Source of the DNA: a virus
Lineage: Duplodnaviria; Heunggongvirae; Uroviricota; Caudoviricetes
Virus record (IMG/VR): IMGVR_UViG_2718217884_000003
Coordinates: 1-41,128 of that record
Strand: one strand, 5' to 3'
DNA: 41,128 nucleotides
The position numbers were made by a program, and so were the translations under genes. The stretch's first letter is position 1. Every line of letters begins with the position of its first letter. The notes beneath the pieces were generated by a model. The model was not told where the DNA came from and made no database searches. It saw only the letters and a list, made by a program, of their open reading frames with translations. Below, in pieces: positions 8,326-17,668 of this stretch.

Positions 8326-8402
8326 GTTGACCTCAACTTATTTCGATTCTCCATCACCCTTAATCCGCCGCCCCATGTGTTTGTTGTGATCCGTTGCTGG
8401 CC

Positions 8403-9119
<717 letters not shown>

Positions 9120-9126
9120 TTAAATC

Positions 9127-9192
9127 TATCACCGCAAGGGATAAATATCTAACACCGTGCGTGTTGACTATTTTACCTCTAGCGGTGATAAT
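9127..9192. promoter_or_regulatory. OR3 (9127..9143), OR2 (9150..9166), OR1 (9174..9190) with divergent pRM/pR
   Basis: Operator sequences match canonical lambda OR3 and OR2; OR1 matches except one base; pR -35 TTGACT (9164..9169), -10 GATAAT (9187..9192). Confidence 0.9.
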
Positions 9193-9207
9193 GGTTGCAT
9201 GTACTAA

Positions 9208-9417
<210 letters not shown>

Positions 9418-9424
9418 GTAACAC

Positions 9425-9470
9425 CGCTCTTTTCACAATGGACATTCGTCCTACGTCGCTGACAAAGCGA
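9425..9470 (+). promoter_or_regulatory. nutR (boxA-like CGCTCTT, boxB hairpin TCGCTGACAAAGCGA)
   Basis: boxA-like motif at 9425..9431 and boxB stem-loop at 9456..9470 with the same loop as nutL. Confidence 0.55.
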
Positions 9471-9554
9471 GCCCCAAGATATCTGACCAACTAAGGCCAT
9501 ATGCGTTTCCACGCATACCTTTCAACTAACTATTCACTATTGGAAAATTAACAA

Positions 9555-9851
9555 ATGACACAAGCAAGTTACAGCAAGCCAACACAGCGAGAAATTGATC
9601 GCGCAGAAACAGATTTACTCATCAACCTGTCAACGCTTACCCAGCGCGGTCTGGCAAAGATGATTGGCTGTCATGAATCGAAGATAAGCAGAACGGACTG
9701 GAGATTTATTGCTTCGGTCTTGTGTGCTTTCGGAATGGCATCAGACATCAGTCCGATTAGCAGGGCTTTTAAGTATGCATTGGATGAAATCACAAAGAAA
9801 AAATCCCCGGCTGCCACCGAGGATTTTAAGCAAATTGATATGCAATTCTGA
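9555..9851 (+). CDS. cII: CII-like transcriptional activator
   Basis: 98-aa ORF; HTH segment and C-terminus (KKKSPAATEDFKQIDMQF) resemble lambda CII; position between cro and the O-like gene. Confidence 0.75.
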   Translation: MTQASYSKPTQREIDRAETDLLINLSTLTQRGLAKMIGCHESKISRTDWRFIASVLCAFGMASDISPISRAFKYALDEITKKKSPAATEDFKQIDMQF

Positions 9852-9883
9852 GGGAATTACTGGATCAATCCACAGGGGTAATT

Positions 9884-10045
9884 ATGACAAAACGTCGTAA
9901 GAAATACCAGGAAAAAGAAGAGATTCGACACCCTGATTCACCTGAGGGATTAGTGGTAGCCGCAGCAAATAACAGGGCGTTCGCAGAGCGCCTTGTTGGT
10001 GTTTACAGACTAGCCAAAGCAGGAGTGAAACATGGGCGTCGTTAA
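9884..10045 (+). CDS. Possible small basic ORF between cII and the replication gene
   Basis: 53-aa ORF found manually (MTKRRKKYQEKEEIRHPDSPEG...); weak RBS; overlaps O-like start by 14 nt. Confidence 0.25.
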   Translation: MTKRRKKYQEKEEIRHPDSPEGLVVAAANNRAFAERLVGVYRLAKAGVKHGRR

Positions 10046-10853
10046 GTTAGCTGATTACAGGCCTCAACTGGAGGTCGTGGAGCATCGCGTGGCAGATACC
10101 GAAGATGGTTTCATGCGCGTTGCTAACGAGATTACCGACAGTCTGCTGATGGCTGATTTAACCGTCCGGCAGATGAAGGTGATGCTCGCTATCATGCGCA
10201 AGACATACGGATTCAATAAGCCGATGGATCGACTCACAAACACGCAGATAGCAGCCATGACAGGTATTCATCACACTCATGTTTGCGCTGCCAAGCGCCA
10301 GCTTATTGAGCGTAAATTCCTCATTGCTGATGGCGTGAAAATCGGAGTGAACAAGGTGGTTTCTCAGTGGATTAGCCAGGACAGCTTAACATTAGCTAAA
10401 ACAGCTAATAAAACATTAGCCAAGTCGGCTAATGGGTATAAGCCAAGTCAGCTAAACACAAAAGACAATATACAAAAGACAATAAATACAAATACCCCCT
10501 TACCCCCTAACGGGGGCGGCGATGGGCAGGTTAAACCTGAACGTCGCAAGGCAGAACGAATCGACTACGAATCCTTCCTGAACGCCTACAACACCGAAGT
10601 CGGTGACAGACTTCCTCATGCTGTTGCGGTCAACGAGAAACGCAAACGCCGCCTGAAGAAAATCATCCCGCAACTGAAAACGCCAAACGTGGACGGTTTC
10701 AGAGCGTATGTCAGGGCGTTTGTGCATCAGGCCAAGCCGTTTTACTTCGGAGACAACGACACGGGCTGGACAGCTGATTTTGATTACCTGCTGAGGGAAG
10801 ATTCGTTAACGGGAGTTCGGGAAGGGAAGTTTGCAGACAGGGGGATTGCATGA
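10032..10853 (+). CDS. Replication initiator, phage O-like N-terminal domain (P22 gp18-type)
   Basis: N-terminal region ([35 protein letters not shown]) typical of the O N-terminal domain; RBS AGGAG; stop overlaps helicase start. Confidence 0.8.
10370..10495. repeat. Candidate replication origin: iteron-like repeats plus A/T-rich tract inside the O-like gene
   Basis: Recurring TTAGC-containing units (acattagc x2, gccaagtc x2) then direct repeat acaaaagacaata x2 in an A-rich tract; analogous to lambda ori inside O. Confidence 0.45.
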
Positions 10854-12226
10854 AACAGGATATCGAAGCGAGCGTTATCGGTGGCCTGCTGATTGGTGGA
10901 TTAACACCAACTGCCAGTGACGTTCTGGCAACGCTGGAGCCGGAAGCGTTTTCAATTCCGCTCTACCGGAAAGCCTTCGAGGTTATCCGGAAGCAGGCGA
11001 GAAACAGAAACCTAATCGACGCGCTGATGGTTGCCGAGGCGTGCGGAGAGGAGCATTTCACGTCAATCCTGATGACCAGCAAAAACTGCCCGAGTGCCGC
11101 AAACCTGAAGGGATATGCCGGAATGGTCGCGGATAACTATCACCGCCGTCTGGTGCTGGAAATCATGGATGAAATGCGTGAACCAATTCAGAGCGGAACC
11201 ATCGATACATCGAGTCAGGCGATGGACGAGCTTGTAAAGCGTCTCTCAGCCATCAGAAAGCCCCGTGACGAGGTAAAACCTGTACGGTTAGGGGAAATCA
11301 TTACTGACTACACTGACACGCTTGACAGGCGTCTGAGGAACGGAGAAGAGTCAGATACCCTGAAGACCGGAATCGAAGAACTTGATGCCATCACCGGAGG
11401 GATGAACGCGGAAGACCTGGTGATAATCGCTGCTCGTCCTGGTATGGGGAAAACCGAACTGGCGCTGAAGATTGCCGAAGGCGTTGCAAGCCGCGTTATT
11501 CCTGGTTCTGACGTCCGACGCGGGGTATTGATTTTCTCAATGGAAATGAGCGCATTGCAGATTGCAGAGCGAAGCATTGCCAACGCCGGGAGGATGTCGG
11601 TTAGCGTACTGCGAAATCCTGCATCGATGGATGACGAAGGCTGGGCGCGTGTTGCTAACGGCATGAGTCAGCTTGCAGATTTGGATGTATGGGTAGTCGA
11701 TGCCTCGCGGTTATCGGTCGAAGAAATACGCTCAATCGCAGAACGACACAAACAGGAAAATCCAAACCTGTCACTCATCATGGCGGATTATCTTGGCCTG
11801 ATTGAGAAGCCGAAAGCAGACCGCAACGACCTCGCAATTGCTCACATCTCAGGAAGCCTGAAGGCGATGGCGAAAGACCTGAAAACACCGGTTATTTCCC
11901 TGAGTCAGCTTTCACGCGATGTTGAGAAGCGACCAAACAAACGCCCGACAAACGCAGATTTGCGTGATTCAGGAAGCATTGAACAGGACGCAGACTCAAT
12001 CATCATGCTCTATCGGGAAGCTGTATATGACGAGAACAGTAGCGCCGCGCCATTTGCTGAAATCATTGTGACGAAAAACCGTTTTGGCTCACTTGGTACG
12101 GTTTACCAGCGGTTCTGCAACGGACACTTTGTTGCATGTGACCAGGATGAAGCCAGACAGATTTGCACAGCATCAAATGCACCTGCTGCGCGTGGCAGAC
12201 GATATGCACAAGGGGCTGACGTATGA
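10850..12226 (+). CDS. Replicative DNA helicase, DnaB family (P22 gp12-type)
   Basis: 458-aa ORF with Walker A ARPGMGKT and the conserved DnaB C-terminal domain. Confidence 0.9.
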
Positions 12227-12251
12227 CCATCTACATCACTGAGCTAATAAC

Positions 12252-12284
12252 AGGCCTGCTGGTAATCGCAGGCCTTTTTATTTG
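12252..12284 (+). terminator. Rho-independent terminator (tR2-like)
   Basis: 8-bp stem AGGCCTGC / GCAGGCCT with loop, followed by TTTTTATTT; between helicase and ninB. Confidence 0.7.
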
Positions 12285-12299
12285 GGGGAGAGGGAAGTC

Positions 12300-12740
12300 A
12301 TGAAAAAACTAACCTTTGAAATTCGATCTCCAGCACATCAGCAAAATGCTATTCACGCGGTACAGCAAATTCTTCCAGACCCAACCAAACCAATCGTAGT
12401 AACCATTCAGGAACGCAACCGCAGCTTAGACCAGAATCGAAAGCTTTGGGCTTGCCTTGGTGACGTCTCTCGTCAGGTTGAATGGCATGGTCGCTGGCTG
12501 GATGCAGAAAGCTGGAAGTGTGTGTTTACCGCAGCATTAAAGCAGCAGGATGTTGTTCCTAACCTTGCCGGGAATGGCTTTGTGGTAATAGGCCAGTCAA
12601 CCAGCAGGATGCGTGTAAACGAATTTGCGGAGCTATTAGAGCTTATACAGGCATTCGGTACAGAGCGTGCCGTTAAGTGGTCAGACGAAGCGCGACTGGC
12701 TCTCGAATGGAAAGCGCGATGGGGAGATCGGGCTGCATGA
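12300..12740 (+). CDS. ninB: NinB (Orf family recombination mediator)
   Basis: MKKLTFEIRSPAHQQNAIHAVQQIL... matching lambda NinB; ATG at 12300 with RBS GGAGAGGG (the track ORF begins at an upstream TTG). Confidence 0.9.
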   Translation: MKKLTFEIRSPAHQQNAIHAVQQILPDPTKPIVVTIQERNRSLDQNRKLWACLGDVSRQVEWHGRWLDAESWKCVFTAALKQQDVVPNLAGNGFVVIGQSTSRMRVNEFAELLELIQAFGTERAVKWSDEARLALEWKARWGDRAA

Positions 12741-13264
12741 CTATCAAATCAAATACGCCAGCACACGACAAGGACTGCTGGCAAACGCCGCTTTGGCTTT
12801 TTGATGCACTGGATATTGAGTTTGGATTCTGGCTGGATTCGGCAGCGAGCGACAAAAATGCTCTGTGCGCTCACTGGTTAACTGAGGCCGACGACGCGCT
12901 AAATTCTGAGTGGGTAAGCCACGGTGCAATCTGGAATAACCCACCGTATAGCAATATCAGGCCGTGGGTGGAAAAAGCCGCTGAGCAGTGCATACAACAG
13001 CGACAGACGGTAGTGATGCTTGTGCCAGAGGATATGTCAGTCGGATGGTTCAGCAAGGCTCTGGAGAGTGTCGACGAAGTTCGCATTATCACTGATGGAC
13101 GGATTAATTTTATCGAACCATCGACAGGGCTGGAGAAGAAGGGAAACAGCAAAGGCTCCATGCTGCTGATTTGGCGACCGTTCATCAGTCCTCGACGGAT
13201 GTTTACTACCGTATCCAAAGCGGCATTGATGGCGATCGGGCAGGGCGTCAGGAGGGCGGCATGA
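12737..13264 (+). CDS. DNA N6-adenine methyltransferase (phage Dam-type)
   Basis: Motif IV NPPY (IWNNPPYS); ATGA overlap with ninB stop; occupies the ninC position. Confidence 0.8.
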
Positions 13265-13437
13265 GACGACAGCGACGAAGTATCACCGACATCATCTGTG
13301 AAAACTGCAAATACCTTCCAACGAAACGCTCCAGAAATAAACGCAAGGCAATCCCAAAAGAATCTGACGTAAAAACCTTCAACTACACGGCTCACCTGTG
13401 GGATATCCGGTGGCTAAGACATCGTGCGAGGAAATGA
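13261..13437 (+). CDS. ninE: NinE
   Basis: [52 protein letters not shown]... matching lambda NinE; ATGA overlap with upstream stop. Confidence 0.8.
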
Positions 13438-13439
13438 CA

Positions 13440-13817
13440 ATGGATTATTCACAGTTAAGTGATTTTGAAATTAACGTGGCGGTATTCGAAGCCATTCATA
13501 ACGGATCACCGGATTACAAAGAAGGTGAGAATGGCGATATGGTGTTTGTCTCATTTGAGGGAGACATTGTAAACGGAGACGCAGTTGAAGTAGAAGTTGA
13601 GCGCGGATCCTTTAACCCATGCGCAAACCCAGCAGACGCATGGCCGATTATCACTGAAAACAACATCAGCATAATTTTAGACAATCCCTCAATGCCGTGC
13701 GCCACAGACAACGCAAGGGACTTGTTTGATGATGCCTTACCGAATGTTGGTGTCGCATATGACAATCCACTCCGTGCCGCCATGATTGTCTTTCTCATGA
13801 TGCGGAGAATCCAATAA
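13440..13817 (+). CDS. Hypothetical nin-region protein
   Basis: About 125-aa acidic ORF between ninE and ninF (alternative ATG at 13434); GAGG upstream; TAATG overlap with ninF. Confidence 0.55.
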   Translation: MDYSQLSDFEINVAVFEAIHNGSPDYKEGENGDMVFVSFEGDIVNGDAVEVEVERGSFNPCANPADAWPIITENNISIILDNPSMPCATDNARDLFDDALPNVGVAYDNPLRAAMIVFLMMRRIQ

Positions 13818-13993
13818 TGCTTAGCCCATCCCAATCCCTTCAATACCAGAAAGAAAGCGTCGAGCGAGCTTTAACGTGCGCTAACTGCGGTCAGAAGCTG
13901 CATGTGCTGGAAGTTCACGTGTGTGAGCACTGCTGCGCAGAACTGATGAGCGATCCGAATAGCTCGATGCACGAGGAAGAAGACGATGGCTAA
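13817..13993 (+). CDS. ninF: NinF
   Basis: Manually translated 58-aa [47 protein letters not shown]... matching lambda NinF; below track cutoff. Confidence 0.8.
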
Positions 13994-14597
13994 ACCAGCG
14001 CGAAGACGATGTAAAAACGATGAATGTCGGGAATGGTTTCACCCTGCATTCGCCAATCAGTGGTGGTGCTCTCCAGAGTGTGGAACCAAGATAGCACTCG
14101 AACGACGAAGCAAAGAACGCGAAAAAGCGGAAAATGCAGCAGAGAAGAAACGACGACGAGAGGAGCAGAAACAGAAAGATAAACTTAAGATTCGAAAACT
14201 CGCCTTAAAGCCCCGCAGTTACTGGATTAAACAAGCCCAACAAGCCGTAAACGCCTTCATCAGAGAAAGAGACCGCGACTTACCATGTATCTCGTGCGGA
14301 ACGCTCACGTCTGCTCAGTGGGATGCCGGACATTACCGGACAACTTCTGCGGCACCTCAACTCCGATTTGATGAACGCAATATTCACAAGCAATGCGTGG
14401 TGTGCAACCAGCATAAAAGCGGAAATCTCGTTCCCTATCGCGTCGAACTGATTAACCGAATCGGGCAGGAAGCAGTAGACGAAATCGAATCAAACCATAA
14501 CCGCCATCGCTGGACTATCGAAGAGTGCAAGGCGATCAAGGCAGAGTACCAACAGAAACTCAAAGACCTGCGAAATAGCAGAAGTGAGGCCGCATGA
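13986..14597 (+). CDS. ninG: NinG / Rap recombination-associated endonuclease
   Basis: 203-aa ORF with Cys-rich N-terminus and the [11 protein letters not shown] motif typical of NinG/Rap. Confidence 0.9.
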
Positions 14598-14800
14598 CGT
14601 TCTCAGTAAAAACCATTCCAGACATGCTCGTTGAAGCATACGGAAACCAGACAGAAGTAGCACGCAGACTGAAATGTAGTCGCGGTACGGTCAGAAAATA
14701 CGTTGATGATAAAGACGGGAAAATGCACGCCATCGTCAACGACGTTCTCATGGTTCATCGCGGATGGAGTGAAAGAGATGCGCTATTACGAAAAAATTGA
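14594..14800 (+). CDS. ninH: NinH
   Basis: 68-aa [40 protein letters not shown]... matching lambda NinH. Confidence 0.85.
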
Positions 14801-15449
14801 TGGCAGCAAATACCGAAATATTTGGGTAGTTGGCGATCTGCACGGATGCTACACGAACCTGATGAACAAACTGGATACGATTGGATTCGACAACAAAAAA
14901 GACCTGCTTATCTCGGTGGGCGATTTGGTCGATCGCGGTACAGAGAACGTCGAATGCCTGGAATTAATCACATTCCCCTGGTTCAGAGCTGTACGTGGAA
15001 ACCATGAGCAAATGATGATTGATGGCTTATCAGAGCGCGGAAACGTCAATCACTGGATGCTTAATGGCGGTGGCTGGTTCTTTAATCTCGATTACGACAA
15101 AGAAATTCTGGCTAAAGCTCTTGCCCATAAAGCAGATGAACTTCCGTTAATCATCGAACTGGTGAGCAAAGATAAAAAATATGTCATCTGCCACGCCGAT
15201 TATCCTTGTGACGAATATGAGTTTGGAAAGCCAGTTGATCATCAGCAGGTAATCTGGAACCGCGAACGAATCAGCAACTCACAAGACGGGATCGTGAAAG
15301 AAATCAAAGGCGCGGACATGTTCATCTTTGGTCATACGCCAGCAGTGAAACCACTCAAATTTGCCAACCAGATGTATATCGATACCGGCGCAGTGTTCTG
15401 CGGAAACCTCACATTGATTCAGGCACAGGGAGAAGGCGCGTGGGCATAA
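14778..15449 (+). CDS. ninI: Ser/Thr protein phosphatase (NinI)
   Basis: Metallophosphatase motifs GDLHG, GDLVDRG, GNHE; start at [23 protein letters not shown]. Confidence 0.9.
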
Positions 15450-15958
15450 GAGAACTAAACCTCACCAAAGAACAGCATGAGTGGCTGAATGGCTGGCTTG
15501 AACTGTGGGGCGCATGGGTTTATTCAGGCCGTCTGGAAAAGCGCATGAGCAGCGTAATAGCGAAGTTCATGGAGAGCGTAGAGCCGGGAAGAGTTATGAC
15601 AAGGCCAATGTGTAATGATGATGATGGAATGTTGATTTCTCAGGTCGTCGATTCCGTCATGTACATTGATAAGAAAGCCTTTGGCATCCTCCTCAGCTAC
15701 TACGCTCATGGTTCATCTAAGCGAGCAATTGCATCCTACTATCACGCGACTGCAAAGCCACGCAAGATGTGTGGACGTGGTGGCGAGGGATGGAGAAAAC
15801 CTTCAATGGCAACCTGTAGAAACGAAATTGACGACATCCTGAAAGCGTCGTTATTTGTTTTGTACCAGCCAATGCAAAATGCTTTCAAAATGCGTAAACG
15901 TGTTGAGAAAGTTAAGCATGTTGCTGTTAAAGGCCTTGACATGCAATTATCCATTTAG
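15440..15958 (+). CDS. Q: Late-gene antiterminator Q (QuuD / phage-82-type family, not lambda-type)
   Basis: GTG start; motifs [18 protein letters not shown] and LLSYYAHG as in the Phage_antitermQ family; position between ninI and the late promoter. Confidence 0.7.
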
Positions 15959-15965
15959 CCATAAT
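15936..15965 (+). promoter_or_regulatory. Candidate late promoter pR' overlapping the 3' end of Q
   Basis: -35 TTGACA (15936..15941), 17-18 nt spacer, -10 CATAAT (about 15960..15965). Confidence 0.5.
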
Positions 15966-15975
15966 TAGAAGGTAA

Positions 15976-16018
15976 GCTGCCGTTAGTGACTCTTAAGTTG
16001 CAACGGTGGCTTTTTTTT
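15976..16018 (+). terminator. Candidate tR'-like intrinsic terminator
   Basis: 9-bp stem (two G-U pairs) with a large loop, followed by eight T's, immediately downstream of the pR' candidate. Confidence 0.45.
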
Positions 16019-16022
16019 ATTT

Positions 16023-16097
16023 GGGTCAGTCGTATAAAGGTCATTACGGAAGGCTGTTAACCTTCTTATCGTGGTTCGAGTCCACGCTGTCCCGCCA
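16023..16097 (+). tRNA. tRNA-Asn (anticodon GTT), phage-encoded
   Basis: Hand-folded cloverleaf: 7-bp acceptor (one T-T mismatch), 3-bp D-stem, anticodon loop CTGTTAA, T-loop TTCGAGT, encoded CCA end. Confidence 0.55.
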
Positions 16098-16102
16098 AAC
16101 AT

Positions 16103-16178
16103 GCTGGTTTAGCTCCAATGGTAGAGCAGTCGCCTTGTAAGCGAATGGGTAGCGGTTCAAGTCCGTTAACCAGCACCA
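16103..16178 (+). tRNA. tRNA-Thr (anticodon TGT), phage-encoded
   Basis: Hand-folded cloverleaf: perfect 7-bp acceptor, D-arm GCTC/GAGC, anticodon loop CTTGTAA, T-loop TTCAAGT, encoded CCA end. Confidence 0.65.
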
Positions 16179-16420
16179 TAACTGAGCCGTAGCCACTGAC
16201 TATCCTGAATTCATCAGTGATAGTTACGCTGCGGCCTTCTACACATGATCTTCGTGAAAGCGGGTGGCAGGAGGTTGCGCTAACAACCTCATGCCGTTTT
16301 GCCCGTGCATATCGGTCACGAACAAATCTGATTACTAAACACAGTAGCCTGGATTTGTTCTATCAGTAATCGACCTTATTCCTAATTAAATAGAGCAAAT
16401 CCCCTTATTGGGGGTAAGAC

Positions 16421-16744
16421 ATGAAGATGCCAGAAAAACATGACCTGTTAGCCGCCATTCTCGCGGCAAAGGAACAAGGCATCGGGGCAATCCTTGCGTT
16501 TGCAATGGCGTACCTTCGCGGCAGATATAATGGCGGTGCGTTTACAAAAACAGTAATCGACGCAACGATGTGCGCCATTATCGCCTGGTTCATTCGTGAC
16601 CTTCTCGACTTCGCCGGACTAAGTAGCAATCTCGCTTATATAACGAGCGTGTTCATCGGCTACATCGGTACTGACTCGATTGGTTCGCTTATCAAACGCT
16701 TCGCTGCTAAAAAAGCCGGAGTAGAAGATGGTGGAAATCAATAA
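16421..16744 (+). CDS. S: Holin S (class I, dual-start holin/antiholin)
   Basis: [34 protein letters not shown]... near-identical to lambda S107/S105 as recalled; upstream leader matches lambda. Confidence 0.95.
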
Positions 16745-17204
16745 TCAACGTAAGGCGTTCCTCGATATGCTGGCGTGGTCAGAGGGAACTGATAACGGAC
16801 GGCAGAAAACCAGAAATCATGGTTATGACGTCATTGTAGGCGGAGAGCTATTCACTGATTACTCAGATCACCCTCGCAAACTTGTCACGCTAAACCCCAA
16901 ACTCAAATCAACAGCAGCCGGACGTTACCAGCTTCTTTCCCGTTGGTGGGACGCCTACCGTAAGCAGCTTGGCCTGAAAGACTTCTCTCCTAAAAGCCAG
17001 GATGCTGTTGCATTGCAGCAGATTAAGGAGCGTGGCGCTTTGCCGATGATTGATCGCGGTGATATTCGTCAGGCTATCGACCGTTGCAGCAATATCTGGG
17101 CTTCACTGCCGGGCGCTGGTTATGGTCAGTTCGAGCATAAGGCTGACAGCCTGATTGCAAAATTCAAAGAAGCAGGCGGAACGGTCAGAGAGATTGATGT
17201 ATGA
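16728..17204 (+). CDS. R: Endolysin R (lytic transglycosylase)
   Basis: 158-aa protein near-identical to lambda R as recalled. Confidence 0.95.
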
Positions 17205-17668
17205 GTAGAGTAACCGCGATTATCTCCGCTCTGGTTATCTGCATCATCGTCTGCCTGTCATGGGCTGTTAATCATTATCGTGATAACGCCATCGCCTATA
17301 AAGAACAGCGTGATAAAAAAGTCAGTGAGCTGAAGCAGGCGACCGCCACCATCGCTGACATGCAGCAGCGTCAGCGTGATGTTGCTGCGCTCGATGCAAA
17401 GTACTCGAGAGAATTAGCCAATGCGAAAGCTGAAAATGATGCTCTTCGGCGCAAGCTTGATAATGGTGGCAGGGTGCTCGTCAAAGGAAAATGCCCTGTG
17501 CCATCCTCAGCCGAAACCTCCAGCGCCTCCGGCATGGGCAATGATGCCACCGTCGAACTCTCTCCAGTTGCTGGACGAAACGTTCTCGGTATCCGGGACG
17601 GAATTATCCGCGACCAAACAGCATTGAGAACGCTTCAGGAATACATCAGGACGCAATGCCTTCGATGA
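17201..17668 (+). CDS. Rz: Spanin inner-membrane subunit Rz
   Basis: N-terminal TM helix, coiled-coil body, lambda Rz-like; directly follows R. Confidence 0.85.
17421..17627 (+). CDS. Rz1: Spanin outer-membrane lipoprotein Rz1 (embedded in Rz, +1 frame)
   Basis: Lipobox MVAGC followed by a Pro-rich segment; true start may be the ATG at 17436 or 17439. Confidence 0.7.

What the first reader, a model, noticed from the sequence alone, without database searches (positions are those of the whole stretch)
9852..10045. Possible small basic ORF between cII and the replication initiator
A 53-aa ORF with a Lys/Arg-rich N-terminus starts 33 nt after the cII stop and overlaps the O-like start by 14 nt. 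It is below the track cutoff and has only a weak RBS, so it may be a genuine small regulator or simply the untranslated leader of the initiator gene.
Basis: seen in the sequence. Interest (0 to 1): 0.2.

Follow-up and report, generated by a model that had tools for sequence, protein, structure and literature searches.

The report
Known small phage gene, HK97 gp53
The 53-codon reading frame is a real, strongly conserved small phage gene (identical to phage HK97 gp53, function still unknown), not an untranslated leader, and it is the first gene of those lambda-like replication cassettes that bring their own DNA helicase.

Summary
The ORF exists as described: 9884-10045, 53 aa, 32 nt after the cII-like stop, overlapping the initiator start by 14 nt. 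An ORF this long is not unusual by chance; the evidence is comparative. It is 100% identical to HK97 gp53 / Sf6 gp42 (PHROG 1331, no Pfam) and is annotated 'hypothetical protein' in about 100 phages and 560 of 5,426 complete E. coli genomes. In 179 of 179 complete loci the frame is intact (51-55 codons, in-frame indels only). Third-codon positions vary most and median dN/dS is 0.16, so it is a protein under purifying selection. The 'weak RBS' is a one-base variant (AGGGG) of the AGGAG site that serves lambda O, because its ATG lies in the conserved 33-bp lambdoid boundary that also carries the oop promoter -10 on the other strand. The same protein precedes unrelated initiators. In every locus where the gene after the initiator could be read, that gene is a phage helicase, never lambda P or a DnaC-like loader. 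P22 orf48 (DUF2740) is a non-homologous occupant of the same slot. The ORF also holds a conserved mRNA hairpin. Function remains unknown. My best guess is an accessory factor of helicase-type replication modules, translationally linked to the initiator. Already known; low-to-moderate interest.

The parts
9555..9851 (+). cII-like transcriptional activator gene (98 aa), upstream neighbour
   Evidence: PF05269 E 4e-33, PHROG 191; identical to HK97 gp52
9798..9873 (-). OOP-like antisense RNA (about 76 nt) overlapping the last ~54 nt of cII; the 5' end is placed by homology to lambda OOP, 11 nt upstream of the ORF's ATG
   Evidence: Aligns with lambda cII-end/oop/O-start. Folds into two hairpins, -30.2 kcal/mol, z -4.6. 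Intrinsic terminator found at 9827->9800 on the - strand. No Rfam family matched. Ends are inferred, not mapped.
9859..9891 (.). 33-bp lambdoid 'boundary sequence' (ACTGGATCAATCCACAGGGGTAATTATGACAAA) holding the oop 5' end, the p_o -10 and the SD and ATG of the first replication-module cistron
   Evidence: Matches the consensus in PMC3349717 with one mismatch. Annotated as bsq5 in Sf6. About 200 of 299 phage records match only this part of the query.
9881..9889 (-). Putative p_o extended -10 (TGTCATAAT on the - strand); contains the reverse complement of the ORF's ATG
   Evidence: Read directly from the sequence. It is the same element as in lambda and P22, where the P22 record annotates the oop promoter over the start of orf48. 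The consensus scan did not call a full promoter.
9874..9878 (+). Shine-Dalgarno of the ORF (AGGGG; AGGAG in HK97 and most relatives)
9884..10045 (+). 53-aa protein gene, HK97 gp53 / Sf6 gp42 / ES18 gp58 family (PHROG 1331)
   Evidence: PHROG 1331 E 1e-37, full length. 100% aa identity to HK97 gp53. Purifying selection and intact frame.
9975..9993 (+). Conserved sense-strand RNA hairpin inside the ORF (8-bp core GGGCGUUC-GCA-GAGCGCCU; extends to 13 bp, 9970-9998, in this window); encodes the invariant FAER motif
   Evidence: It is the only consensus structure RNAalifold finds in the ORF alignment. Compensatory pairs are present. 187 of 192 positions are paired, against 143-149 expected when synonymous codons are resampled. 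It folds in 22 of 25 representatives.
10021..10025 (+). Shine-Dalgarno (AGGAG) of the initiator gene, inside codons 46-48 of the ORF
   Evidence: Sequence. Third-position variability is reduced in alignment columns 47-51, the KAGVK stretch. Conserved as GCAGGRGTGAAR.
10032..10853 (+). Replication initiator (273 aa, O-like N domain, P22 gp18-like); its first 10 codons ([10 protein letters not shown]) belong to the conserved cassette
   Evidence: PF04492, PHROG 345. 51% identical to P22 gp18. The cassette ends at about 10062.
10850..12226 (+). Phage DnaB-like replicative helicase (458 aa)
   Evidence: PF03796 and PF00772

Best explanation
SHOWN: 9884-10045 is a genuine protein-coding gene, the HK97 gp53 family. 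It encodes a 6-kDa basic protein (pI 10.7). The AlphaFold model (mean pLDDT 70) has a disordered Lys/Arg-rich N-terminal tail (residues 1-20) followed by two helices (21-29 and 31-49). It is read from the rightward early (pR) transcript, using the ribosome-binding site and ATG that serve gene O in lambda. That site lies inside the 33-bp lambdoid boundary sequence, which on the opposite strand carries the -10 of the oop promoter. Its last 14 nt overlap the start of the replication initiator (ATGGGCGTCGTTAA), and the initiator's own AGGAG lies within its codons 46-48. The gene plus the first 10 initiator codons (about 9859-10062) forms a portable cassette. Nearly identical copies of the cassette sit in front of unrelated initiator bodies. 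In every locus where the gene after the initiator could be read, that gene is a phage-encoded helicase, never a lambda-P or DnaC-type loader. INFERRED, about 0.3: the protein is a trans-acting accessory factor of helicase-type replication modules. It would be made together with the initiator through termination-reinitiation coupling. It would act on something common to all these modules (a host replication protein, nucleic acid, or the co-inherited N-terminal decapeptide of the initiator) rather than on the variable initiator or helicase bodies. Its exact activity is unknown.
For: Identity: PHROG 1331 at E 1e-37 over its full length. 100% aa identity to HK97 gp53, Sf6 gp42 and about 60 other phage records. 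Present in 560 of 5,426 complete E. coli genomes, called 'hypothetical protein' by PGAP.
Coding: 179 of 179 complete copies are intact, at 51-55 codons. Indels are in-frame only. Entropy by codon position is 0.52/0.37/1.17, pN/pS is 0.31 and median dN/dS is 0.16 (0.12 in the core). Invariant residues sit on freely varying third positions.
Start site: an SD is present in every locus, and the ATG aligns with the ATG of lambda O and of P22 orf48 (PMC3349717).
Coupling geometry: the overlap is 14 nt in 163 loci and 17 nt in 3, out of 166.
Cassette: gp53 at >=98% identity occurs with 2 cII clusters and at least 3 initiator clusters. The Sf6 initiator is 22% identical to the window's. The ES18 initiator is 94% identical to lambda O residues 19-157, with the N-terminus swapped. 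Breakpoints are shown.
Association: gp53 > initiator > DnaB-like or primase-helicase in 35 of 35 boundary-containing contigs and in 20 of 20 diverged loci. orf48 shows the same in 20 of 20. With no small ORF the order is O > lambda P (32) or O > IstB/DnaC-like (2).
Structure.
Against: There is no direct evidence of translation, such as Ribo-seq or mass spectrometry, and none of function. Nothing turned up in Pfam, NCBIfam, PADLOC, PDB sequence, PDB fold or BFVD searches, nor in the papers searched.
Lambda-type O works without such a gene, and P22-type modules use an unrelated ORF, so the protein is dispensable for the basic initiation mechanism.
The helicase association rests on few independent module types: about 5 with a small ORF against 2 without. 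It could therefore be historical linkage rather than function.
One identical protein paired with helicases only ~30% identical to each other, or not DnaB-like at all, argues against a specific helicase contact.
The initiator has its own strong SD and no conserved structure masks it, so coupling may not be needed.
Two damaged copies exist: L158 without an ATG and L291 frameshifted.
Confidence: 0.75

Rival explanations
1. Translated leader only. The ORF would matter because ribosomes must traverse it to deliver or modulate translation of the overlapping initiator gene, as with tap-repA of plasmid R1 or repY-repZ of ColIb-P9, possibly under the influence of the adjacent OOP-like antisense RNA. 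The peptide itself would have no function.
For: The overlap with the initiator start is an invariant 14 nt. An antisense RNA ends 11 nt upstream of the ORF's ATG. A conserved hairpin lies inside the ORF. The identical ORF serves unrelated initiators.
Against: A pure leader needs no particular amino-acid sequence, yet median dN/dS is 0.12-0.16 and many residues are invariant on saturated synonymous sites. The initiator has its own AGGAG at optimal spacing, and no conserved structure sequesters it. I know of no leader peptide of this kind that is this long or this conserved (from memory, not checked here).
Confidence: 0.08
2. Not a gene. On this view the open frame is a by-product of DNA/RNA-level constraints (p_o promoter, recombination 'boundary' linker, mRNA hairpin, initiator RBS) in the leader of the initiator gene. 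Its wide occurrence would reflect recent horizontal spread.
For: An ORF of this size is common by chance. Several overlapping nucleotide-level elements do exist. Copies among E. coli and Salmonella phages are >95% identical, so those copies alone say little.
Against: Homologues down to 57-62% aa identity in Serratia, Rahnella, Brenneria and Erwinia keep the start, frame, length and stop. Their substitutions are concentrated at third positions, and indels come in multiples of three. Nucleotide-level elements would conserve all three codon positions, and that pattern is seen only locally, in alignment columns 8-11, 30-38 and 47-51.
Confidence: 0.02
3. Autoregulatory RNA-binding protein. The arginine/lysine-rich N-terminal tail and helices of gp53 would bind the conserved hairpin within its own coding sequence. 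That would throttle translation of itself and of the coupled initiator, setting initiator dosage.
For: The protein has a basic tail reminiscent of arginine-rich RNA-binding peptides. The sense-strand-specific hairpin is maintained by compensatory and synonymous choices, and it lies 39 nt upstream of the initiator ATG. The non-homologous orf48 in the same slot is also basic and also contains an 8-bp hairpin.
Against: This is purely inferential. The hairpin loop is only 3 nt and its third base varies. The N-terminal tail is the least constrained part of the protein, with median dN/dS 0.37 (pN/pS 0.47). Part of the hairpin follows automatically from the FAER codons, giving about 6 of 8 pairs expected. 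The orf48 hairpin could not be tested for covariation.
Confidence: 0.1

Closest known systems
HK97 gp53 (AAF31131) / Sf6 gene 42 / ES18 gp58 / epsilon34 gp49; PHROG 1331, 'unknown function'
   Same: The protein sequence is identical to HK97 gp53 and Sf6 gp42. The position is the same, between the cII-like gene and the initiator, with the same 14-nt overlap.
   Different: Nothing of substance. The window differs from HK97 by one base in the 194 nt, G9877 in the Shine-Dalgarno.
P22 / HK022 orf48 (Pfam DUF2740, PHROG 1913)
   Same: It occupies the same slot and starts at the same ATG of the same 33-bp boundary. It is also small (48 aa), basic (pI 10.4), overlaps the initiator start (by 8 nt) and contains an 8-bp hairpin. 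It combines with the same three initiator types and, wherever the next gene could be read, precedes a phage helicase.
   Different: No detectable homology: hhalign probability is 0.05% for the single sequence and 0.9% profile against profile. Only the first 11 residues are similar, and they are encoded by the shared p_o DNA. The initiator N-terminal peptide that travels with it is different (MSNLATV.../MSNISNL...).
Start of lambda gene O with the oop/p_o region (Hayes et al. 2012, PMC3349717; Clark et al. 2001 'sequence 5')
   Same: The SD, the ATG and the first two or three codons (ATGACAAA) are homologous. The oop 5' end, the p_o -10 and the OOP terminator inside the cII 3' end are all present.
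   Different: In lambda the ATG opens O itself. Here it opens a separate 53-codon gene, and the initiator starts 148 nt further on in another frame. The papers note the 'orf' and that lambda lacks it, but assign no function.
Leader peptides coupled to plasmid replication initiators (R1 tap-repA with CopA; ColIb-P9 repY-repZ with Inc RNA); recalled from established literature, not checked here
   Same: There is a short ORF overlapping the start of a replication initiator gene, with an antisense RNA gene immediately upstream. This gives a plausible analogy for how expression of the two cistrons is linked.
   Different: The peptide here is longer and under strong purifying selection. The antisense RNA pairs with the upstream cII 3' end, not with the leader's ribosome-binding site. 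The initiator SD is not sequestered in a conserved structure.

Membership tests
HK97 gp53 family (PHROG 1331) | Full-length sequence match to the family profile and to its named members | tested here: met
   PHROG 1331 E 1.4e-37, residues 1-53 against profile 1-53. 100% identity to HK97 gp53 and Sf6 gp42 by tblastn.
HK97 gp53 family (PHROG 1331) | Position immediately upstream of, and overlapping, the replication initiator gene, downstream of a cII-type or YdaT-type gene | tested here: met
   The overlap is 14 nt here and in 163 of 166 loci. The upstream gene is cII-like here.
HK97 gp53 family (PHROG 1331) | The family is a real protein (purifying selection on the frame) | tested here: met
   Median dN/dS 0.16, third-position entropy 1.17 against 0.52 and 0.37, and 179 of 179 frames intact.
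P22 orf48 / DUF2740 (PF10872) | Sequence homology to the DUF2740 profile | tested here: not met
   No Pfam hit for the ORF at E<=1. hhalign of A1 against the orf48 alignment A5 gives probability 0.9%.
P22 orf48 / DUF2740 (PF10872) | Same genomic slot and same start site | tested here: met
   The ATGs coincide in the boundary alignment. The P22 record places orf48 between c1/oop and gene 18.
Translational-coupling leader peptides of replication initiators (R1 tap, ColIb-P9 repY type) | Short ORF whose stop lies at or just after the initiator start codon | tested here: met
   The TAA lies 11 nt after the initiator ATG.
Translational-coupling leader peptides of replication initiators (R1 tap, ColIb-P9 repY type) | Peptide sequence itself unconstrained | tested here: not met
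   dN/dS 0.12-0.16; the invariant residues are listed (L23 A27 F33 A34 R36 R52).
Translational-coupling leader peptides of replication initiators (R1 tap, ColIb-P9 repY type) | Initiator RBS masked by a conserved mRNA structure that leader translation opens | tested here: not met
   RNAalifold on 20 diverged sequences predicts only the internal hairpin (columns 98-116) and nothing over the initiator SD or ATG. The window-only MFE pairing of the AUG is not conserved.
Translational-coupling leader peptides of replication initiators (R1 tap, ColIb-P9 repY type) | Initiator translation depends on leader translation | not testable with these tools
   Needs reporter fusions with leader start or stop mutants.
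Lambda OOP antisense RNA / p_o (flanking element inside the finding's coordinates) | About 77-nt leftward RNA with 5' hairpin and intrinsic terminator, overlapping the 3' end of cII, with the -10 CATAAT over the next gene's ATG | tested here: met
   Alignment to lambda. Terminator at 9827->9800. Two-hairpin fold, z -4.6. The terminator stem differs from lambda's by paired changes (read). Transcription itself was not tested, and Rfam has no model that matched.
Lambda CIII (small FtsH inhibitor that protects CII) | Sequence similarity to CIII | tested here: not met
The window has its own cIII-like ORF at 5295-5537 (-).

The most novel reading that the evidence does not exclude
gp53, and independently the unrelated orf48/DUF2740, would be a so-far-overlooked third component of lambdoid replication modules that encode their own helicase. 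It would be a tiny basic protein doing for these modules part of what lambda P or DnaC-type loaders do for host DnaB: helping to place or activate the phage helicase at the origin, or neutralising the host helicase system. It could act through the N-terminal decapeptide of the initiator that is always co-inherited with it. The conserved hairpin in its mRNA could tune the gp53:initiator ratio.
Probability: 0.15. Interest if true: 0.55.

Novelty: already known. Interest (0 to 1): 0.25.

Why it matters
The gene family is carried by about one in ten complete E. coli genomes, including Shiga-toxin phages, and by many Salmonella P22-like phages, yet no function has been assigned to it. It sits at the junction where lambdoid phages swap immunity and replication modules. 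It is physically interlocked with the oop promoter on one side and the replication initiator on the other. Knowing whether it helps phage-encoded helicases, sets initiator dosage or does something else would fill a gap in an otherwise well-understood paradigm. It could also bear on Stx-phage replication, and hence on toxin gene dosage. For the genome scan itself the result is mostly reassuring: a below-cutoff ORF that is a true gene and should be annotated.

Tried and rejected
1. Domain and family searches of the 53-aa protein found only PHROG 1331 'unknown function'. Pfam, NCBIfam and PADLOC gave nothing.
2. An exhaustive profile search of 1.84 billion representatives found only 24 small stand-alone relatives. 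There were no fusions to known domains.
3. The PDB sequence search gave nothing at E < 7. Foldseek of the AF2 model (pLDDT 70, two helices) against PDB and BFVD gave no hits. I did not use the third fold-search job because a two-helix model cannot give meaningful matches.
4. Homology to P22 orf48 was rejected, both with the single sequence and profile against profile. Homology to lambda CIII was rejected.
5. Rfam found no family in 9000-10600. OOP appears to have no matching Rfam model, so its identification rests on alignment to lambda.
6. The sigma-70 consensus scan found no promoter in 9400-10300. p_o is therefore inferred from homology and its extended -10 only.
7. A structure masking the initiator start appears in the window's own MFE but is not conserved, so it was dropped.
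8. Literature searches for a function or for ribosome-profiling evidence of gp53 or orf48 found only descriptive mentions.
9. I considered a gp53-initiator or gp53-helicase complex prediction. The structure tool takes single chains from the window only, so this was not attempted.

Full report
OBSERVATION. The window is a lambdoid phage. Positions 3315-17317 match HK97 at 98.2%. Around the finding the + strand reads cro (9217-9417), a cII-like gene (9555-9851, PF05269), the 53-codon ORF (9884-10045), an O-like/P22 gp18-like initiator (10032-10853, PF04492, PHROG 345) and a DnaB-like helicase (10850-12226, PF03796). The protein [53 protein letters not shown] is basic (pI 10.7). An open frame of this length is not remarkable in itself. 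P(53 sense codons) is about 0.08, 4% of shuffles of the 194 nt give an ORF of at least 50 codons, and the window holds 97 six-frame ORFs of 53-80 aa.

IDENTITY. The ORF matches PHROG 1331 ('unknown function') over its whole length at E 1e-37. It has no hit in Pfam, NCBIfam, PADLOC or the PDB. By tblastn it is 100% identical to HK97 gp53, Sf6 gene 42 and some 60 other phage records. It is 94-98% identical to ES18 gp58, epsilon34 gp49 and g341c gp44, and 75-79% identical to copies in Cronobacter, Erwinia and Enterobacter phages. The 194-nt stretch occurs in 560 of 5,426 complete E. coli genomes, where PGAP calls it 'hypothetical protein'. An exhaustive profile search of 1.84 billion representative proteins finds only 24 relatives. 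All are about 50-aa stand-alone proteins, so the family is narrow and confined to prophages of Enterobacterales.

IS IT CODING? I collected 184 loci from phage records, GTDB genomes, IMG/VR and metagenomes. Of these, 179 hold a complete copy with an ATG, an SD-like motif and 51-55 codons. Four run off a contig end and one (L158) lacks the N-terminus. A further frameshifted copy (L291) turned up in a separate sample. There are 60 distinct DNA sequences and 42 distinct proteins, reaching down to 57% aa identity in Serratia, Rahnella and Brenneria. All indels are multiples of three. On 21 diverged sequences, entropy by codon position is 0.52, 0.37 and 1.17. pS is 0.61 against pN 0.19, and median dN/dS is 0.16 (0.12 in the core). 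Invariant residues such as E12, E13, P20, A27, F33, A34, E35, R36, G39 and A44 sit on freely varying third positions. This is the signature of a translated protein under purifying selection, so the 'untranslated leader' reading is rejected.

THE START SITE AND THE 'WEAK RBS'. Window 9859-9891 is the 33-bp conserved lambdoid 'boundary sequence', ACTGGATCaATCcACAGGAGTaATTATGaCAAA. It was described by Clark et al. 2001 and by Hayes et al. 2012 (PMC3349717) and is annotated as bsq5 in Sf6. Alignment with lambda, P22, Sf6, ES18, HK97 and an Erwinia phage shows that the ORF's ATG is the same ATG that opens gene O in lambda and orf48 in P22. The window carries AGGGG where HK97 and 96 other loci carry AGGAG. 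That G9877 is the only difference from HK97 in the 194 nt. The predicted anti-SD pairing is nearly unchanged, at -6.6 against -6.9 kcal/mol.

On the opposite strand the same boundary carries the 5' end of an OOP-like antisense RNA and an extended -10, TGTCATAAT, which contains the reverse complement of the ATG. The predicted RNA runs from 9873 to about 9798, folds into two hairpins (z -4.6) and ends at a terminator that the scan detects at 9827->9800. It overlaps about 54 nt of cII, as in lambda. Rfam has no matching model and the consensus promoter scan is negative, so this element is inferred from homology. Reduced third-position variation in codons 8-11 coincides with the stretch where the P22 record annotates the oop promoter, and with the only stretch where gp53 and orf48 resemble each other.

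MOSAIC CONTEXT. About 200 of the 299 phage records that match the query match only its first ~42 nt, which is the boundary. In those records the ATG opens lambda-type O or orf48 instead. The block of near-identity shared with Sf6, ES18 and others runs from 9859 to about 10062. It covers the boundary, gp53 and the first ten initiator codons, [10 protein letters not shown]. Copies of gp53 at >=98% identity sit behind two different cII clusters and in front of at least three initiator types. The Sf6-type initiator is 22% identical to the window's and does not reach PF04492. The ES18 initiator is 94% identical to lambda O residues 19-157, with only the N-terminus replaced. The overlap with the initiator start is 14 nt in 163 of 166 loci. 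The gene is therefore more conserved than either neighbour and travels as a small cassette of its own.

ASSOCIATION WITH HELICASE-ENCODING MODULES. I classified 119 IMG/VR contigs that hold the boundary sequence.
- gp53 > initiator (three types) > DnaB-like helicase or Toprim primase-helicase: 35 of the 35 where the third gene could be read.
- orf48 > the same initiator types > helicase: all 20 of the chains whose third gene matched a reference. One further orf48 locus (L247) has an HNH endonuclease gene after the initiator.
- No small ORF: O > lambda P in 32, and O > IstB/DnaC-like AAA+ loader in 2.
- A T5orf172 gene in the slot, followed by an initiator: 3, of which two show an IstB-like loader as the next gene and the third is cut off.
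All 20 diverged loci from genomes and phages also read gp53 > initiator > helicase. The rule 'small basic ORF with a phage helicase, none with a loader for host DnaB' had no clear exception in this sample. It rests, however, on only about five module types against two, so historical linkage is not excluded.

RELATION TO orf48. P22 orf48 is Pfam DUF2740. It is also small, basic (pI 10.4) and overlaps gene 18 by 8 nt. It is not homologous to gp53: hhalign probability is 0.05% and 0.9%. It is a positional analogue.

STRUCTURE. AlphaFold2 with the family alignment gives a disordered N-terminal tail (residues 1-20) and two helices (21-29 and 31-49), with mean pLDDT 70 (80-89 in the helical core). 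No fold matches were found.

A HAIRPIN INSIDE THE ORF. RNAalifold on 20 diverged sequences predicts a single consensus structure in the whole ORF. It is an 8-bp stem with a 3-nt loop at window 9975-9993, and it extends to 13 bp in this window. Pair counts show compensatory changes. One pair is G-C in 28, G-U in 16, C-G in 12, U-G in 3 and unpaired in 1 of 60 distinct sequences. That pair links the first base of an Ala/Pro/Ser codon to the synonymous third base of the invariant Arg codon. The many G-U pairs mean that only the sense RNA can form the structure. With the amino-acid sequence held fixed and synonymous codons resampled, 143-149 of 192 positions would pair in 24 representatives, whereas 187 do. 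The nominal P values ignore relatedness and are inflated. The hairpin appears in the MFE of 22 of 25 representatives, with a mean core energy of -7.3 kcal/mol. Its role is unknown. orf48 has an 8-bp hairpin at a comparable place, but there is too little diversity to test it.

MECHANISM.
Shown: this is a real gene, translated from the site that is the O start in lambda. It is interlocked with p_o/oop at its 5' end and with the initiator's SD and ATG at its 3' end. It is portable between initiators and restricted to helicase-encoding modules.
Inferred: the protein is a trans-acting accessory of such modules and is co-expressed with the initiator by termination-reinitiation. One identical protein serves initiators and helicases that are unrelated or only ~30% identical to one another. 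Its target is therefore more likely something common to them: a host replication protein, nucleic acid, or the co-inherited decapeptide of the initiator. I put about 0.3 on this specific role.
Rivals: translated leader only (0.08, contradicted by amino-acid conservation); not a gene (0.02); autoregulatory binding of its own hairpin (0.1, untested).

COMPARISON AND NOVELTY. The ORF is an already annotated family member, identical to HK97 gp53. The cII-oop-'orf'-O-P layout and the absence of the orf from lambda are in the literature (PMC3349717), without any function assigned. This analysis adds four things: a quantitative demonstration that the frame is under purifying selection, the correction of the 'weak RBS', the helicase-versus-loader association, and the embedded hairpin. 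Verdict: a true but already known gene of unknown function, of low-to-moderate interest.

Noticed in passing
window 9975-9993 (+), extended 9970-9998: A sense-strand RNA hairpin inside the ORF, over the invariant FAER codons. It is kept in diverged relatives by compensatory changes and by synonymous-codon choice (187 of 192 positions paired, against 143-149 expected). Its function is unknown.
   Followed up: partly
window 9798-9873 (-) and 9881-9889 (-): An OOP-like antisense RNA with an intrinsic terminator inside the 3' end of cII, and a putative extended -10 (TGTCATAAT) that contains the reverse complement of the ORF's start codon. It is homologous to lambda oop/p_o. No Rfam model matched.
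   Followed up: partly
window 10032-10062; loci L001, L004, L022 and others: Unrelated replication initiators that follow gp53 all begin with the same decapeptide, [10 protein letters not shown]. The ES18 initiator is lambda O (94% over residues 19-157) with only this N-terminus swapped in. From memory, V-V-K-L resembles the N-terminal ClpX recognition motif class of lambda O (T-A-K-I); this was not tested.
   Followed up: partly
119 IMG/VR loci L187-L305: Among contigs holding the 33-bp boundary, a small basic ORF (gp53 or orf48) preceded the initiator in all 55 modules where a phage helicase gene was read after it. No such ORF was present in modules with lambda P (32) or an IstB/DnaC-like loader (2). 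In three contigs a 214-aa T5orf172/MUG113 gene occupies the slot instead. One contig (L222) has a third kind of 47-aa ORF.
   Followed up: partly
L025 (P22 NC_002371.2) 1350-1496: RefSeq labels P22 orf48 'tail protein', following PHROG 1913. The gene lies in the early replication region and belongs to Pfam DUF2740, so the label looks like an annotation error that has been propagated.
   Followed up: partly
window 9877: There is a single-base difference from HK97 and the consensus within the Shine-Dalgarno and OOP 5'-flank (AGGGG instead of AGGAG). It is seen in only 3 of 179 loci. Predicted SD pairing is almost unchanged, and any effect on p_o or OOP is unknown.
   Followed up: partly
L003 (MAG 'Bacillota bacterium' JAEZIN010000021) and L006 ('Chryseobacterium sp. 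18061' CACSKA010000001): Copies of this enterobacterial prophage gene (100% and 83% aa identity over the tblastn match) occur in assemblies attributed to Bacillota and Chryseobacterium. Mis-binning or contamination is the most likely reason.
   Followed up: no
L158 and L291: Two damaged copies were found. L158 lacks the first 10 codons and has no ATG. L291 has a frameshift in the A-run GAAAAAGAAG that gives a 22-aa product. These could be real pseudogenes or homopolymer sequencing errors.
   Followed up: no
window 5295-5537 (-): A cIII-like ORF (MQYAIAGWPVAGCPSESLLERITRKLRDGWKRLIDVLNQPGVPKNG) ends 8 residues earlier than the lambda CIII sequence I recalled from memory. The phage therefore has its own CIII, and gp53 is not a substitute for it.
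   Followed up: no
window 9859-9873: The boundary contains a GATC (Dam) site and a stretch, CAATCCACA, with 7 of 9 matches to the DnaA-box consensus TTWTNCACA as I recall it. This was not evaluated against chance.
   Followed up: no
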